A DNA stretch of 64,000 nt from Naegleria gruberi (Eukaryota), in assembly GCA_000004985.1 (NCBI GenBank), contig GG738868.1; one strand, 5' to 3'. A program made the position numbers and the translations under genes. This document shows positions 1 to 27,627 of the stretch, piece by piece; within the stretch, counting starts at the first letter, position 1; the number at the start of each line of letters is the position of its first letter. The notes under the pieces were generated by a model that made no database searches, had not been told where the DNA came from, and worked only from the letters and a program-made list of their open reading frames with translations.

Positions 1-409
1 CTAACCCAAACCCAAACCCAAGCCCAAACCCAAACCCAAACCCAAACCCAAACCCAAACCCAAACCCAAACCCAAACCCAAACCCAAACCCAAACCCAAC
101 CCAAACCCAAACCCAAACCCAAACCCAAACCCAAACCCAAACCCAAACCCAAACCCAAACCCAAACCCAAACCCAAACCCAAACCCAAACCCAAACCCAA
201 ACCCAAACCCAAACCCAAACCCAAACCCAAACCCAAACCCAAACCCAAACCCAAACCCAAACCCAAACCCAAACCCAAACCCAAACCCAAACCCAAACCC
301 AAACCCAAACCCAAACCCAAACCCAAACCCAAACCCAAACCCAAACCCAAACCCAAACCCAAACCCAAAACCAAACCCAAACCCAAACCCAAACCCAAAC
401 CCAAACCCA
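1..409. repeat. Telomeric repeat tract, (CCCAAA)n on the + strand (G-strand TTTGGG on the - strand running toward position 1). About 68 units with variants (CCCAAG near 20, a CCCAA pentamer near 95, CCCAAAA near 365). The orientation fits a left chromosome end.
   Basis: Direct reading: perfect hexamer periodicity from position 1 to about 409, followed abruptly by unique AT-rich sequence. Confidence 0.95.
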
Positions 410-1202
410 CGACTAAGGTCAGACCCAACATTTTGACTTTTATTCATCTTAATTAATTATCTCAATAAATACTCATTATAAATCAATATATTATATATCA
501 ATATACTCCAAATTTAATATATAATCATATAATAACATAATATTACATCATTATAATGACTTATATAAGTTAATTTCATATAACAGATTAGACAATTAGA
601 ATATCAATGAAAACATTTCAAATTCAATTCAAATCAATTAATCATCTTATAAGTCATGTTAATAACAATATATATCAATTTCAAATACTTTGGTATCAAT
701 TCAGGACATTTACTATTCAACTTGTCAACTGACCTATACTAACATTGAAGATAGAAATCTATACCACTTCAATTCACTTCTAATACATCTACACATGATA
801 ATTAAATACATTAATATCATTTTGAAATTCATCCATATTATACATGGTACATGGCTGATCCACTTGATACCTACAGGGATGTGACAATGACATGTACTAT
901 ACAGATCATCCTGATATTGATACAGTACCTTACCAATGATGAATTAACACCACAGTATCAGTTTCGTGACAATTTGAAATCATTCAACTAGTCAGGAGTG
1001 TAATCATGAGAATTATGAATGTCAGTATAATGAAATGATATTAATTTTGAAATCTTTCAATTATATCATCATATATAGATCAATTAATCATGGTATATCA
1101 ATAATTGGTATTGAATTTCATATCAATTCATTCAAACCTTAATGACCTATCCTTAGATGACCAAGGCAATTTTAAACTATCATGAATCATATAACTATTG
1201 AT

Positions 1203-1252
1203 NNNNNNNNNNNNNNNNNNNNNNNNNNNNNNNNNNNNNNNNNNNNNNNNNN
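1203..1252. other. Assembly gap (50 N)
   Basis: Run of n characters in the sequence. Confidence 0.99.
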
Positions 1253-1707
1253 GAATTTTTTGCATGGAAGATAATGCGACCGAATATTACCGAATAATTT
1301 TTTATACGGGTTTATTTCGTATATAACATAAAGTTTACAGATTTTATGAAGATTATTATGATATATCACAAGATGAAGACGTTACTATTAAACAAATTGT
1401 AAATCACGAAATGTTATTTGGAGACAATCCTTCAAACAAACGTCTTAATTAGTGTGTGATTAAGAAAAGTAAACAAAGTGATGCAACCGGACTTGTGCTC
1501 ACAAAAGAAACAATGGATGATTACTCTCCTTCATCAGACAGGATGGTTAGATTTAATATTATCGGCTTTGAGATAGCCCACACTGAATTTCATAGCACAA
1601 CATTTGATATTGTATTCGTTAATGGTTGGCATAAACAATATTTTGTTGTTTGTTGAAAGTTTGCTTCCTCAACAACAGAAAGTTACAAGATCAACAAATT
1701 CAACAAT

Positions 1708-2718
1708 TTGAAGGGTATTGGAAAACCAAGTCAACCTAAATATCAGCAATACTCTGAGCATTTCCTTAAATTTAATTACAGCCAATCAGTTAACAAATTT
1801 CATCCATCGTTTGCATTCGTTGATTGTTTAATTGAATCAGTGACCAGTCAATCTACATTTAGATTATCCTTATCACAAATTGAATGTTTATTTACTTTAT
1901 GTCAACAAATCTCATTATTGAAAAAGGAAAATTTGGAAGAAATTGTGTAACAATTAGAGGCATTTTCAACAAAGTATTGTCAATATTCTGATTTGTTTTC
2001 AGAAATTCTAACAGATACATGGAATGATACCTATAATTCTATTCAGGTATTTAAAAGTTGGGCTTTCTTTCCTTTTCAAAAGATTACTCAACCTTTCTTG
2101 TTCGATTCTGAACTTGCTCAGGATTCTCCACATCTTCTCAGATACCTCATTTCATGTAAATATGGTAATTTATTGGCAGGTCAAATCCTTTCTCAAATAT
2201 ATCTGGTAGAAGATGAAGATGGAGATTTATTTAGATTGGCAAAGCAATGTGGTGTCCCAGAGGAGAACTCTCCAAACTCAATTGAGCAATATCCTAATAT
2301 TTTACTGAGAGGAAATAGAAAAGAGTTGAGCAATGTAAATACAGATCCCAGATTGTGGTATTTTCATCCTACAGATAATTGTAATTATTCACTCCTAGAT
2401 TTCCAAAAATACTTATTTGGCTTGGATTGGTATTTACTTTATTTATTTGTTTTAGGATTGAGATTTAAAGAACATGTTGAAAAAGTTAAACCAATTCTCA
2501 AAGAGTATAATATAGGTCTCTATTATCACTTTATTAGACAATTACTTCCTTCAACTTTAGAAAGAATTGAATGTTCCAAAAAAGCAATTGCTAATGGAAT
2601 TCATGAAGATATTCAATTAATTAATACGACAACAGAAGAGCCAGAAATACTGTTGTGGAGAAGTCTTGCTCGTTTATTTGAGGAAGAAAAAACAGAGTAT
2701 GAATCCACTTCCTGCTAG
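1708..2718 (+). pseudogene. Two same-frame subtelomeric ORFs (1708-1950 and 1993-2718, both with non-ATG starts) separated by a stop. No recognisable domain and no intron that restores the frame. Possibly a decayed subtelomeric gene.
   Basis: ORF track plus frame arithmetic. No GT..AG interval of suitable length joins the two ORFs. Confidence 0.15.
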
Positions 2719-3543
2719 CAGGATGAAGTTGTTGAGAAATTACCAAGGATTTCTTCAATTTATATTGTCGTTTTAGTAATAGTGTGCACAAATAAATTCA
2801 TAAATCCATGAATATTCAGGGCCAAATAAGAAAATAATGAAATAATAAAGAAATCGAGTACAGTGAGTTTACAGCGATATTATTTACGGTTCGTAGATGC
2901 CCTTTGTTAAAATTTTTTAAATTTTTCAACAACCTTTTGCAAGCACTTCAAAAATATTTTTATCGCCCTTAATAATTCAAAGAAAATGAGCATTTATTAA
3001 ATCTGAAAAATAGAAAGAACGGAAACAACTTGCATCATTAAATTCAAAATTAATTATTCGTTTGGACATTATTTGGAAAGAGGAAAGAGAATTAGTGACA
3101 GAGCAACACGGAGAAGTGTTCCAGTGATAGTGAACAATTAATATTGAAACCAACACATAGATTTTAAGATATAGTTACTCTCATTTACCAATATTTTGAA
3201 TTAGTGGTGTCACCATCAAATGTCTTATGAATTATTAAGAACAAACGTCCTATTAATTTGTAATAAATATACTATATTTCAATTTTAAATTGTTGACTTT
3301 TGTACTTAATTGACTTGAAGATACTGAGCCATCAATATGAAACTTTCTCGGATTGTTCTCCTCATCAAGGGGAGTGTATTCATATTTGATACTGGTATGA
3401 TATTTTGTAAATTGACTGAGATGGAGTGTAATCTTTTTATTGAAATGTGACATTTTGAAAGATTGTTATTATTATCGTATTGAATTCTATTCTAACAATG
3501 TGAAATTGATACAAGATATATAGTATTGTAATTAAATGTATCT

Positions 3544-3582
3544 GGTAAATTTACATGGTAAATTTACATGGTAAATTTACAT
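3544..3582. repeat. 13-bp tandem repeat (GGTAAATTTACAT) x3 in the subtelomere
   Basis: Three exact head-to-tail copies read directly. Confidence 0.9.
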
Positions 3583-3984
3583 GATGATTGGATGTACTTT
3601 CATTGAGATGGAGTGTTCACTAGGATATAGTGTTGACATTGAACATTCTGATTAATTTTATGAAAGTAGTTTGAAATGTTTCTAAACTATTGTGGATGTA
3701 TTTCATTGATGTATACTCTTTGGAATATCAACTGATTCCCAAGAGAGTGTCAGCTCAAACTGTTTCTTCAATTTTTACGTTTTTTCAAAAATCAGAAGAA
3801 TTAAAAAATTATATAATAGGGGCACTAAAAACACAGTAAAGAGAAGAAAACCTTGTTTTTGAAGGGCATTCACTTTTAACAACTACGATTTTTAAGGGGT
3901 GATTGAAAAAAACCCAGTAATCGCTGTAATCAAATTAAATGTCTTTATTTGTTGAGTAAGGTATAAAAGAAGCACTGAGGAAAT

Positions 3985-4452
3985 TTATTTCATCAATAGA
4001 GTGCACACTATTACTAAAACGACAATACTGAAAAATTCATTGTATAAAAACAGTATTCCTCCAATAATCAAGAAAATCACAATTATATAGGGAAAATAGA
4101 TAACCATCACAATTTCAAGAACCAACAAGATAAGAGTTACCACAGGAGTTAAGCATATTAAGGTGATAAGCAGCCAATTAGGAAGACATGTTTCATTGAC
4201 ATAATCTGCAGTATGAACTCTAACATAGAACAGGAAGAAATGTGCTGGGAATAAGAACATTAGAAACGGAATTCCAAGATAAGTAATCAAACTCAACCAA
4301 GGAAGGTCCATAGTCTTTGCCAACAACTGTTGGAAGGAGTTACTTGTTATTGGGCTACTAGTAGTTGAAGTTTCGTTGGATTCTTCTTCTTCATTGTCAA
4401 GATTTATTGGCATTGGTTCACAAGTTTCCTGCGCTATTGGTGTTTCTGACAT
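3985..4452 (-). CDS. Small hypothetical membrane protein (155 aa, about 4 TM helices, acidic N-terminus)
   Basis: ATG-initiated ORF. Hydrophobic helices FLMFLFPAHFFLFYV, LLITLICLTPVVTLILLVLEIV and IIVIFLIIGGILFLY. No homology recognised. Confidence 0.3.
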   Translation of the reverse strand: MSETPIAQETCEPMPINLDNEEEESNETSTTSSPITSNSFQQLLAKTMDLPWLSLITYLGIPFLMFLFPAHFFLFYVRVHTADYVNETCLPNWLLITLICLTPVVTLILLVLEIVMVIYFPYIIVIFLIIGGILFLYNEFFSIVVLVIVCTLLMK

Positions 4453-4804
4453 TTTTTACTTCAAATAAACTGCAAGTTATTCTAATCTTCTTTTTTATTT
4501 CGTAATTAACGTGAGTATTCTTAAAAATCGAAACGTGATTTGTTGTAATTGAACAGTTTCAGAAGTACTTTGTTAGAAGAGACAATCTATTCATATATGC
4601 AATAACTTAAAATTCATTCTTCTTTTTCAATTTGTCAACCTTAATCTTGTCAATTTTCATTTCACGTTGGAAAGCAAGAGATTGTTTGAATCGATGATGT
4701 GTGTCCATCATGACCAGACATGTTTCCTTTTCTAAAATATTGAACATGGTATCTGGTAGAGTTTCAATTTGCTTATCATTGAACTTGTCAAGATAATCCT
4801 TGTG

Positions 4805-4854
4805 NNNNNNNNNNNNNNNNNNNNNNNNNNNNNNNNNNNNNNNNNNNNNNNNNN
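4805..4854. other. Assembly gap (50 N)
   Basis: Run of n characters in the sequence. Confidence 0.99.
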
Positions 4855-5816
4855 CTGGTCTAAGCGCAAAAGAATACCTAAGAATGTGGCCCTAGAAGTC
4901 TACAAAGCACTAGCTATTTATTTGGAAAATTGCTACAAGAACTCAGTGTGGTACAACCGTCCCAATGCAGGCTTCACTATTAACAGGAAATACCTCTCTG
5001 CCTACCACAGGCAGGCTCAGTCTAACCAACCACTTAGCGTCAACCCATAACACTTAAACGCTGAACCGAAACTTACTGGTTGTAGACCTCGTCTCTCAGG
5101 TCTTTACGATACAAGAGACGTTAATAAAATCACAATTTACTTTTGCAGGTTCTACCACTTCTTGATTACTAGCAAGCTTCAACTCCATTTCACTTAGTCT
5201 TGAAAGAAGTACATCCATGTTCGCAATATTCCTTCTTGATTTGACTCTAGCTGTACCATTATTCCTGCAAGACTCAACATCTTCCGACTCAGATGAAGAA
5301 GGAGAGGATGACGAGGAGTCGGTTCTTCTAGAGTGATTCAGAGGAATACTCTGGCTTGTGCTTCCCGAGTCTGAATGATGATGTCTACCAAATTGTCAAC
5401 TGACCTATCAGAAGGTAGTTGAATGCCCATTGATTCAATGAGTTCCTCTAATTGATCAATAGAGCACTCTGATAATTCATTTCTTGATTTAAAATACATC
5501 TTTCGGAATTAATTTGAGACTTCAAGGTATAAATGGGAAGTAGAATCAACAAGTGTTAAAACCATCTTTTATTACACAAAACAAAAGAAATATCCAATTG
5601 TCACAATTGAACAATACAATAGATTGAAACTTTTCCAAATTACCATTTGAATCGGGAAGTGATGATGATTTTAGTGAACAATATTAAATTTCACTAAAAT
5701 ATTAATATTATCAGATTTCCACAAATATTACTATTATAATGATGATAAATAACAATGATGATGGTTGGTAGTAGTTCCGATGTGATGGAACACGGTAGTA
5801 TCTGGAATTGAAAAAA

Positions 5817-26091: not shown

Positions 26092-27627
26092 ATGAATATC
26101 GAGCTCAATGACACATCTCCTGCAACAGTCGACAAGACAAACTCTTCCAACAACTTTCTAGATGCACACAATGATGTACTCTCTGGAAGTTCTCTCGATA
26201 TCCACCACCATCCAAATTCTCCAACTTTTGCTGACCACCAACCAACTTCTCCTTCCTCACCTCCATCTGGCGTTAAATACAGAGAAGATTTCACCATCGA
26301 TATAGAAGCTGCCAAGCAATCTGCCTCCAAGTCTACAACCTCCAGATCAAAGACAGTTTCGTCTTTGAAGAGTAGGGATTCAGATATAATTTTTACTATT
26401 CATACATGTGTGGGAAAGATTCAATTATCCAAATTGAGATTATTTAGTTTGGTTTCCTTGTTCATTAACTTGGCTTCCTTTGTCATATTAGCTGGTCTTA
26501 TCATTGCTGCTTTCGTCCTGCAAGATCAATATAACAATTTTTGGGAAGGTTTGGACACAGACACAACCTATTATAGACAACGAATGATTTCTGCTTCGAG
26601 AATGTCAGTTTTTTCAAATGGTGATAAGGCAACCACAAAGCTATACTATGATGAGTATGTGGTCTACATGTGGAAGTTTAGTAATAACACTGGGTTGTTC
26701 AAGACAGTTGTTCCTGAATCTGTTAGAAATGCTGCCTTAAAAGGAAAGACTAATCCTGAATTGGATACAACCAAAGCTGTTTATCAAGAACAAGGAGCCA
26801 TGTTTTTGGCTATGGCTGGTAATTATACTACGGCCATGTATTTGTTAAATTCTGCAACTTACAAGACTTATTTAGCTGGTTATGATTCAGAGTTTCAAAT
26901 TATGGTTGACTATGTTCAATCTGCAAAGAAACAAGCTCAGAATGTTTCTGTGGTCATGGTTACAGTTTCGTTGGCTGTTATTTTATTCTCTCTCGTATTG
27001 GTAGTTCCTGTCATTATTTCTTCATTTGTAGTTTCGATTAAGAAGGACGAATCTGTTAATAGAAAACTAAACCAAGCTAGAACCTTCTTATTGATTGATA
27101 CCATGCAACATGCCAAGATGAGACAATTATTTAGAAAGCATTGTGAAACAGAGTTGAGTTTGGAAAATTTCCAACTTTTAGAAAAGATTACCGATTACAA
27201 AATGTATTGTGAAAGAAGTTTCGAAATTCAAGAATATTTATACGAAAGCAGTGAAAGAAGTGATACCATTTCAGATATTTCTGCTGAAAATAAGAAGAAG
27301 GGTTATGCCAAGAAGAAGTTCAATGAAAAGGATTTGCTCGAATGTGAAAAGAAGAAATACGAAATTGCATTCGAAATTTACTCTGAATTCTTGGATGTCA
27401 GAGGTGAGAAATCTGTCAATTTAAACAAGCAGATTACTGAAAAGGTCAAGCAACACTTGGATTTATTCGCCACTGGTCAGAATGAACATTTAATCGATTC
27501 ACTTTTCGAACAAGTCGAAGCCGAAACTTGCATTGTCATGTTGGATTCTCATCACAGATTCAAGCAAACCATCGAATTCCAAAAACAAGCCAAGAAGGAT
27601 ATTATTACCTCAAAGAAGAAACATTAA
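26092..27627 (+). CDS. Two-TM membrane protein with an extracytoplasmic loop domain of about 140 aa and a C-terminal RGS (regulator of G-protein signalling) domain, 511 aa
   Basis: ATG start. TM1 LFSLVSLFINLASFVILAGLIIAAFVL and TM2 VSVVMVTVSLAVILFSLVLVVPVIISSFVV. RGS-like C-terminus LSLENFQLLEKITDYK..YEIAFEIYSEFLD..VNLN..CIVMLDSHHRFKQT. Confidence 0.7.
   Translation: MNIELNDTSPATVDKTNSSNNFLDAHNDVLSGSSLDIHHHPNSPTFADHQPTSPSSPPSGVKYREDFTIDIEAAKQSASKSTTSRSKTVSSLKSRDSDIIFTIHTCVGKIQLSKLRLFSLVSLFINLASFVILAGLIIAAFVLQDQYNNFWEGLDTDTTYYRQRMISASRMSVFSNGDKATTKLYYDEYVVYMWKFSNNTGLFKTVVPESVRNAALKGKTNPELDTTKAVYQEQGAMFLAMAGNYTTAMYLLNSATYKTYLAGYDSEFQIMVDYVQSAKKQAQNVSVVMVTVSLAVILFSLVLVVPVIISSFVVSIKKDESVNRKLNQARTFLLIDTMQHAKMRQLFRKHCETELSLENFQLLEKITDYKMYCERSFEIQEYLYESSERSDTISDISAENKKKGYAKKKFNEKDLLECEKKKYEIAFEIYSEFLDVRGEKSVNLNKQITEKVKQHLDLFATGQNEHLIDSLFEQVEAETCIVMLDSHHRFKQTIEFQKQAKKDIITSKKKH

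What the first reader, a model, noticed from the sequence alone, without database searches (positions are those of the whole stretch)
1..409. Chromosome-end telomere built from a CCCAAA/TTTGGG hexamer
The window opens with about 68 tandem CCCAAA units, with the C-rich strand 5' to 3' on the + strand. This is the expected polarity for a left chromosome end. The unit (G-strand TTTGGG) is not the widespread TTAGGG or TTTAGGG type. Variant units (CCCAAG, CCCAA, CCCAAAA) are interspersed, and the tract ends sharply at about 409. The unit could help place the organism. The long standard-code ORFs argue against a ciliate with a reassigned code, even though TTTGGG/TTGGGG units are best known from ciliates.
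Basis: seen in the sequence. Interest (0 to 1): 0.5.

Follow-up and report, generated by a model that had tools for sequence, protein, structure and literature searches.

The report
Naegleria gruberi TTTGGG chromosome-end telomere
The window opens with a genuine 400-base telomere repeat (TTTGGG on the G-strand) at the end of a Naegleria gruberi scaffold; a 2013 survey already reported this motif as that amoeba's candidate telomere, so it is real but ordinary.

Summary
Window 5-409 holds 63 perfect CCCAAA units, four one-base variants and a final CCCA. The C-rich strand is on the + strand. The repeat occurs nowhere else in the 64 kb.

Three proteins encoded in the window are identical to Naegleria gruberi RefSeq proteins, which sit on a 427,589-bp scaffold. 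So the organism is a heterolobosean amoeba that uses the standard genetic code, not a ciliate.

Fulneckova et al. 2013 (PMC3622300) already listed TTTGGG as the in-silico candidate telomere repeat of N. gruberi. I found no experimental confirmation in the searchable literature.

The array is uniform, with no CCCCAA units. This differs from Paramecium, whose telomeres mix TTGGGG and TTTGGG.

The motif alone does not identify a telomere. (CCCAAA)7 or longer is common inside prokaryotic genes. Position and polarity are what matter. In one metagenome assembly (JAESGV01), all 16 contigs with the repeat carry it at a contig end in telomere polarity. The four of those contigs checked for gene content carry eukaryotic genes.

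Caveats:
- A 50-N scaffold gap lies only 793 bp inside the array.
- I could not examine other N. gruberi scaffold ends, TERT or the telomerase RNA.

Verdict: a real telomere array, already known as a candidate, of low interest.

The parts
1..4 (+). CTAA: four non-repeat bases distal to the array. They could be a read-end or trimming remnant, or part of a variant unit.
   Evidence: Read directly from the sequence. Their origin cannot be resolved here.
5..409 (+). Telomere array, with the C-strand (CCCAAA)n on the + strand and the G-strand TTTGGG running 5'->3' towards the end. It has 63 perfect units, 4 variants and a terminal CCCA.
   Evidence: TRF reports 68.0 copies at 98% match. No copy occurs elsewhere in the window.
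17..22 (+). Variant unit CCCAAG.
95..99 (+). Variant unit CCCAA, with one A missing. It shifts the register by 1.
364..375 (+). Variant pair CCCAAAA plus CCAAA, equivalent to one C-to-A substitution, near the proximal end of the array.
410..1202 (.). Telomere-adjacent unique sequence. It is AT-rich (25% GC) and has no ORF of 70 aa or more apart from the one made by the repeat itself.
   Evidence: blastn found no hit to the rest of the window or to any fetched locus. The junction 36-mer is absent from metagenome contigs.
1203..1252 (.). Scaffold gap of 50 N, which joins the telomere-bearing contig to the rest of the scaffold. A second gap lies at 4805-4854.

Best explanation
This is the telomere repeat array at one end of a Naegleria gruberi nuclear chromosome, as captured at the end of a 427,589-bp assembly scaffold. 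The G-rich strand (TTTGGG)n runs 5'->3' towards the terminus.

By inference from how such arrays work in other eukaryotes:
- Telomerase adds the repeats, copying a short CCCAAA-permuted template in its RNA subunit.
- The array ends in a single-stranded G-rich 3' overhang.
- Sequence-specific end-binding proteins bind it, cap the end and offset replicative loss.

The 407 bp seen is a lower bound set by read length and assembly, not the true telomere length.

Shown here: the array, its position, its polarity, its uniformity and the organism. Inferred: physical terminality, synthesis by telomerase, the overhang and capping.
For: (1) The array is period 6, 68 copies and 98% identical, and starts 4 nt from the window start.

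(2) The polarity is that of a left chromosome end.

(3) No second copy, not even of 1.5 units, occurs in the other 63.6 kb.

(4) The array is not coding. The only frame open across it ends 38 nt beyond it. This contrasts with prokaryotic genomes, where 79 of 98 internal tracts sit in frames that extend at least 100 aa beyond the tract.

(5) The organism is N. gruberi, by exact protein identity. An independent survey of 143 genome assemblies named TTTGGG as this species' candidate telomere on grounds of terminal position and orientation (PMC3622300).

(6) The first 5.8 kb are AT-rich and gene-poor, the one ORF searched there has no homologues, and the region holds two assembly gaps. This is usual for subtelomeres.

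(7) The same repeat behaves as a telomere elsewhere. In metagenome assembly JAESGV01, 16 of 16 contigs with (CCCAAA)7 or longer have it at a contig end in telomere polarity. The four of these contigs I checked encode eukaryotic or eukaryote-type proteins: SETD1, AFG1, PPR-DYW and a gypsy-type polyprotein. Among all contigs below 43% GC, the end polarity is 29 correct to 4 wrong (binomial p = 1e-5). Among high-GC contigs it is 18 to 14.
Against: No experiment, and none found in the searchable literature, shows that TTTGGG is at the physical ends of N. gruberi chromosomes or that telomerase makes it.

Only one end is visible here. I could not inspect other N. gruberi scaffold ends.

A 50-N gap at 1203-1252 means the 1.2-kb telomere contig is attached to this arm only by scaffolding.

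I could not verify that window position 1 is scaffold position 1.

The motif itself is not diagnostic, since it is common inside prokaryotic genes. A few of the low-GC contigs with correct polarity are prokaryotic, to judge from reading their ORF translations, for example L042 and L083.

Two of the four variant units lie in the distal part of the array. Telomerase turnover normally keeps distal repeats uniform, so these may be sequencing errors.
Confidence: 0.88

Rival explanations
1. The array is a long internal microsatellite at which the Sanger assembly broke, so it only appears terminal.
For: Assemblers do break at such repeats. Among high-GC prokaryote-like contigs, the same repeat sits at contig ends in either orientation, 18 to 14. 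I could not see beyond window position 1.
Against: Its orientation is the telomeric one. It is 407 bp at 98% purity, and no related tract occurs anywhere else in 64 kb. The published survey judged the N. gruberi pattern convincingly terminal. Eukaryotic metagenome contigs show the same motif only at ends, 16 of 16 in telomere polarity.
Confidence: 0.05
2. The telomere is real, but the scaffold join is wrong. The 1.2-kb telomere contig would then belong to a different N. gruberi chromosome end and was attached to this arm by an erroneous mate-pair link.
For: A 50-N gap lies at 1203-1252, with a second at 4805-4854. The 793-bp telomere-adjacent sequence has no similarity to anything else available, so the join cannot be checked independently.
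Against: Nothing specific argues against the join. Mate-pair scaffolding of a short subtelomeric contig is routine, and the region just inside the gap is AT-rich and gene-poor, like a subtelomere. This rival changes only which end carries the telomere, not what the array is.
Confidence: 0.06
3. The array is a contaminant or chimeric read from a ciliate of the Paramecium type (TTGGGG/TTTGGG), or a coding dipeptide-repeat microsatellite.
For: TTTGGG units occur in Paramecium telomeres. (CCCAAA)n encodes PK, PN or QT linkers in many bacterial genes.
Against: None of the 67 units is CCCCAA, whereas Paramecium arrays are a mix. The flanking genes are N. gruberi genes with standard-code ORFs. No open frame extends more than 38 nt beyond the array.
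Confidence: 0.01

Closest known systems
Candidate telomere repeat TTTGGG of Naegleria gruberi (Fulneckova et al. 2013, Genome Biol Evol 5:468; PMC3622300)
   Same: Same organism, same motif, and the same kind of evidence: terminal position and orientation in the public assembly. This window is most likely one of the scaffold ends on which that call was based.
   Different: Nothing substantive. Here the array is dissected unit by unit, the scaffold-gap caveat is noted, and environmental contigs are added as independent support.
Paramecium macronuclear and micronuclear telomeres (mixed TTGGGG/TTTGGG)
   Same: They contain the same TTTGGG hexamer with the G-strand towards the end (PMC13085455, PMC5855555).
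   Different: In Paramecium, TTTGGG is a by-product of an error-prone or stuttering telomerase that copies a TTGGGG-type template, and it is interspersed with TTGGGG. Here 63 of 67 units are TTTGGG and none is TTGGGG. That implies a template encoding TTTGGG itself. The organism is an unrelated standard-code amoeboflagellate.
Canonical TnAmGo telomerase repeats (TTAGGG human type, TTTAGGG Arabidopsis type, TTGGGG Tetrahymena type)
   Same: A short G/T-rich hexamer or heptamer with a run of three G, tandem and polar at chromosome ends. The presumed mechanism, telomerase plus end-binding proteins, is the same.
   Different: The unit lacks the A of TTAGGG and TTTAGGG, and has one fewer G and one more T than TTGGGG. 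Fulneckova et al. treat it as a secondary replacement of an ancestral TTAGGG within Excavata.
Coding (CCCAAA)n microsatellites in prokaryotic genes (Pro-Lys, Pro-Asn and Gln-Thr linkers)
   Same: Identical DNA repeat, up to 552 nt long (L181).
   Different: They are internal to chromosomes, occur in either orientation, and lie in long open reading frames (79 of 98). The window's array is terminal, polar and non-coding.

Membership tests
Telomerase-type chromosome-end telomere | Tandem array of a short G/T-rich unit | tested here: met
   68 copies of a 6-nt unit at 98% identity.
Telomerase-type chromosome-end telomere | G-rich strand runs 5'->3' towards the end | tested here: met
   The C-strand is on the + strand at the left edge of the window.
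Telomerase-type chromosome-end telomere | Located at the end of the assembled sequence, with nothing distal | tested here: inconclusive
   The array starts 4 nt from the window start. Scaffold coordinates could not be retrieved. The physical end needs long reads or BAL31.
Telomerase-type chromosome-end telomere | Same repeat at the other chromosome ends of the same genome | not testable with these tools
   No N. gruberi genome collection is searchable here. The literature reports a convincing terminal pattern for this assembly (PMC3622300).
Telomerase-type chromosome-end telomere | No comparable interstitial blocks | tested here: met
   No further match of 1.5 or 2 units occurs in the remaining 63.6 kb. 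This covers the window only.
Telomerase-type chromosome-end telomere | TERT present, and a telomerase RNA with a template complementary to the repeat | not tested
   The window has no Rfam RNA family at gathering score and no CCCAAACCC outside the array. N. gruberi TERT and TER could not be queried, and literature searches were uninformative.
Paramecium-type variable telomere (TTGGGG/TTTGGG mix) | Interspersed TTGGGG and TTTGGG units | tested here: not met
   0 CCCCAA units among 67. The definition comes from PMC13085455 and PMC5855555.
Interstitial telomere-like satellite | Flanked on both sides by unique sequence | tested here: not met
   Only 4 nt (CTAA) precede the array.
Coding dipeptide-repeat microsatellite | Array embedded in a long open reading frame | tested here: not met
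   The only open frame (1-447, minus strand) extends 38 nt past the array. Compare 79 of 98 prokaryotic tracts in long frames.

The most novel reading that the evidence does not exclude
TTTGGG may not be a peculiarity of N. gruberi. It may be the telomere motif of a wider, largely uncultured group of AT-rich standard-code eukaryotes, possibly heteroloboseans.

Sixteen contig ends of metagenome assembly JAESGV01 carry it in telomere polarity. One of those contigs (L055) has DYW-type PPR genes, as far as I recall a heterolobosean hallmark outside plants. Another (L118) has an AFG1 whose highest identity among the top-scoring named hits is to Acrasis kona. On L055 a gypsy-type retroelement also abuts the array.

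If so, the motif could serve as a marker for recovering chromosome ends of such protists from metagenomes. It would also predict a telomerase RNA with a true TTTGGG template, unlike the misincorporation mechanism of Paramecium.
Probability: 0.3. Interest if true: 0.3.

Novelty: already known. Interest (0 to 1): 0.15.

Why it matters
The telomere motif is a small but useful piece of genome biology for a model amoeboflagellate that is related to the pathogen N. fowleri. It marks complete chromosome ends in assemblies. It also sets the template sequence to look for when searching for the still undescribed Naegleria telomerase RNA, and it adds a data point on how telomere repeats change across eukaryotes. 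This particular observation adds nothing that the 2013 survey did not already state. Its value is as a correct annotation of this scaffold end.

Tried and rejected
- **Ciliate origin.** Rejected. Standard-code ORFs cover 93% of the window, and there are exact N. gruberi protein matches.
- **Other RNA genes or a telomerase RNA in the window.** No Rfam hit at gathering score. One tRNA-Leu only. No template-like CCCAAACCC outside the array.
- **Subtelomeric gene family as a route to other chromosome ends.** ORF 1993-2718 has no detectable homologue. The junction 36-mer is absent from metagenome contigs. blastn of 410-5800 against the rest of the window and all fetched loci found nothing.
- **Retrieving the N. 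gruberi scaffold or independent assemblies by exact protein look-up.** Failed for four proteins. I therefore could not check scaffold coordinates, bridge the N gap or see other ends.
- **Literature on Naegleria telomeres, TERT or TER beyond the 2013 survey.** Nothing relevant. The N. gruberi genome paper is not held, and the survey's supplementary table S5 is not held.
- **Naming the organism behind the JAESGV01 contigs.** The accession is not in any paper. The PPR-DYW protein gives only distant plant hits. AFG1 gives weak, mixed affinities, with the highest identity among the top-scoring named hits being 43% to Acrasis kona.
- **The motif alone as proof of a telomere.** Rejected. It is common inside prokaryotic genes.

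Full report
**Observation**

The window begins CTAA, followed from base 5 by a tandem array of CCCAAA that runs to base 409. Tandem Repeats Finder reports one array at 3-409: period 6, 68.0 copies, 98% matches, no indels, score 793. Unit-by-unit parsing gives 63 perfect CCCAAA units and four variants. These are CCCAAG at 17, CCCAA at 95, and CCCAAAA plus CCAAA at 364-375 (together one C-to-A change). A final CCCA follows, and then the sequence switches abruptly to unique DNA.

The 12-mer CCCAAACCCAAA, with one mismatch or fewer, occurs 65 times, all inside the array, against 0.43 expected. The 9-mer CCCAAACCC occurs 63 times, all inside the array, against 0.25 expected. The repeat does not recur anywhere in the other 63.6 kb.

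**What genome this is**

- The window is 33% GC.
- It is densely packed with long ORFs in the standard code. Stop-free segments of 100 aa or more sum to 93% of the window length.
- It carries an intron-containing tRNA-Leu.
- Pfam finds LRR_6-type leucine-rich repeats, a PAS domain, TmcB-type TPR, RGS, GH113 and EGF/fn3 surface-protein domains.
- Three ORFs are exact matches to Naegleria gruberi proteins XP_002677068.1 (NAEGRDRAFT_58017), XP_002677162.1 (NAEGRDRAFT_79719) and XP_002677161.1 (NAEGRDRAFT_79717), all on a contig of 427,589 bp.

The organism is therefore the heterolobosean amoeboflagellate N. gruberi.

**Is it a telomere?**

- The array is at the very edge of the window, with only four bases distal to it.
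- The C-rich strand is on the + strand, so the G-rich strand runs 5'->3' towards the end. This is the universal telomere polarity.
- It is not coding. The only frame open through it (ORF 1-447, minus strand, reading GFGF.../LGLG...) ends 38 nt past the array.
- The adjoining 793 bp are 25% GC and have no further ORF of 70 aa or more.
- The next 4.5 kb hold only a few ORFs. The one I searched (1993-2718) has no detectable homologue. The region also holds a second assembly gap. This is a typical subtelomeric picture.
- Fulneckova et al. 2013 searched 143 genome assemblies for TnAmGo-type minisatellites and judged them by position and orientation. [quoted passage not shown]

I found no later paper in the searchable library that deals with Naegleria telomeres, TERT or telomerase RNA.

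**Is the motif diagnostic on its own?**

No. In the prokaryotic genomes, 98 tracts are internal. Of these, 79 lie in open frames that extend at least 100 aa beyond the tract. The repeat there reads as Pro-Lys, Pro-Asn, Gln-Thr or similar dipeptides, so these are probably coding linkers.

Among contigs of 43% GC or more that end in the repeat, orientation is random: 18 in telomere polarity and 14 opposite. That is what assembly breaks at a microsatellite would give. Low-GC contigs behave differently, at 29 to 4 (binomial p = 1e-5). Some of these are prokaryotic, to judge from reading their ORF translations, for example L042 and L083.

The cleanest subset is one metagenome assembly, JAESGV01. 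All 16 of its contigs with the repeat carry it at a contig end in telomere polarity. The four contigs I checked for gene content carry eukaryotic or eukaryote-type genes:

- SETD1 (L085)
- AFG1 (L118)
- a Ser/Thr kinase (L055)
- two DYW-type PPR proteins (L055)
- a gypsy-type RT/RNase H/integrase polyprotein that starts about 90 nt from the array on L055

So TTTGGG arrays do act as chromosome ends in other uncultured eukaryotes. Their identity is open. From my own knowledge, DYW-type PPR proteins outside plants are a known heterolobosean feature. The AFG1 shows its highest identity among the top-scoring named hits to Acrasis kona, at 43%. The PPR protein finds only distant plant relatives, and the assembly accession appears in no paper.

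**Comparison with known systems**

The only well-studied telomeres that contain TTTGGG are those of Paramecium. There it is interspersed with TTGGGG as a result of misincorporation or stuttering on a TTGGGG-type template (PMC13085455, PMC5855555). The N. gruberi array has no CCCCAA unit among 67. It therefore fails that family's defining feature and points to a template that encodes TTTGGG itself. Otherwise it is an ordinary member of the TnAmGo class of telomerase repeats. Fulneckova et al. read it as a secondary replacement of an ancestral TTAGGG within Excavata.

**Mechanism**

Shown here:
- a polar, uniform, non-coding hexamer array at the end of an N. gruberi scaffold.

Inferred from general telomere biology, not tested here:
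- synthesis by telomerase on an RNA template carrying a permutation of CCCAAA;
- a G-rich 3' overhang;
- capping by sequence-specific proteins;
- a true length greater than the 407 bp that the assembly retained.

**Caveats**

1. A 50-N scaffold gap at 1203-1252 means the telomere-bearing contig is only 1.2 kb long and is tied to this arm by scaffolding alone.
2. I could not retrieve the scaffold through the exact-protein index. So I could not confirm that window base 1 is scaffold base 1, bridge the gap, or look at any other N. gruberi end.
3. Two variant units lie in the distal part of the array. They may be read errors rather than true variants.
4. TERT and the telomerase RNA were not examined. 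The window has no Rfam family match.

**Verdict**

The feature is a real telomere array of Naegleria gruberi, with about 0.88 confidence. The remainder is split between an assembly-break microsatellite, a mis-scaffolded but genuine telomere, and contamination.

It is already known as an in-silico candidate from 2013, so novelty is nil and interest is low (0.15). The modest extras from this work:
- the unit-level anatomy;
- the contrast with Paramecium;
- the demonstration that position and polarity, not the motif, carry the evidence;
- a set of environmental eukaryotic contigs that end in the same repeat.

Noticed in passing
window 2763-2789 and 4001-4027: A perfect 27-nt inverted repeat (TATTGTCGTTTTAGTAATAGTGTGCAC), with arms 1211 nt apart and no extension beyond 27 nt. 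It lies in the gene-poor subtelomeric region, and the right arm falls inside the 3' end of ORF 3985-4452(-). It may be the terminal inverted repeats of a small DNA element.
   Followed up: partly
window 1203-1252 and 4805-4854: Two 50-N scaffold gaps lie within the first 5 kb, so the subtelomere is assembled from short contigs.
   Followed up: yes
L003, L017, L018, L027, L035, L051, L052, L054, L055, L066, L076, L079, L085, L095, L113, L118 (metagenome assembly JAESGV01): All 16 contigs end in (CCCAAA)n/(TTTGGG)n in telomere polarity. Non-repeat GC ranges from 0.21 to 0.39, so more than one organism may be involved. Genes found on L055, L085 and L118 are eukaryotic (SETD1, AFG1, PPR-DYW). A heterolobosean affinity is only hinted at: AFG1 is 43% identical to that of Acrasis kona.
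   Followed up: partly
L055 1-3765: A gypsy-type retroelement polyprotein (RVT_1, RNase H, integrase; 1178 aa) starts about 90 nt inside the telomere array. The proximal part of that array is degenerate (CCCAACCCACCACACC...). This looks like a telomere-adjacent retrotransposon insertion.
   Followed up: no
L035 and L113 (right ends): Two very AT-rich contigs share a telomere-adjacent repeat containing GGCCAGATGTCTCT..., directly next to the TTTGGG array. This may be a conserved subtelomeric element in an unidentified organism.
   Followed up: no
L121-L240 (prokaryotic genomes), e.g. L181 1375-1926, L161 7035-7316: (CCCAAA)n tracts of 42-552 nt are frequent inside bacterial and archaeal chromosomes, notably in Paenibacillus. 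79 of 98 lie in long open frames as PK, PN, QT, LG or FG dipeptide repeats. Telomere-motif scans of metagenomes need a check on position and polarity.
   Followed up: partly
L114 (right end, read from the contig end inward): A 67% GC metagenome contig has about 11 CCCAAA units embedded in CCCTAA-type (TTAGGG) repeats. This is a block of the variant unit inside a human-type telomere array.
   Followed up: no
window 26092-27627 (P0001) versus P0002: The N. gruberi RGS-domain protein shares a 90%-identity cluster with a 510-aa protein from a 2.5-kb ENA metagenome-assembly contig, so a close Naegleria relative is present in an environmental data set.
   Followed up: no
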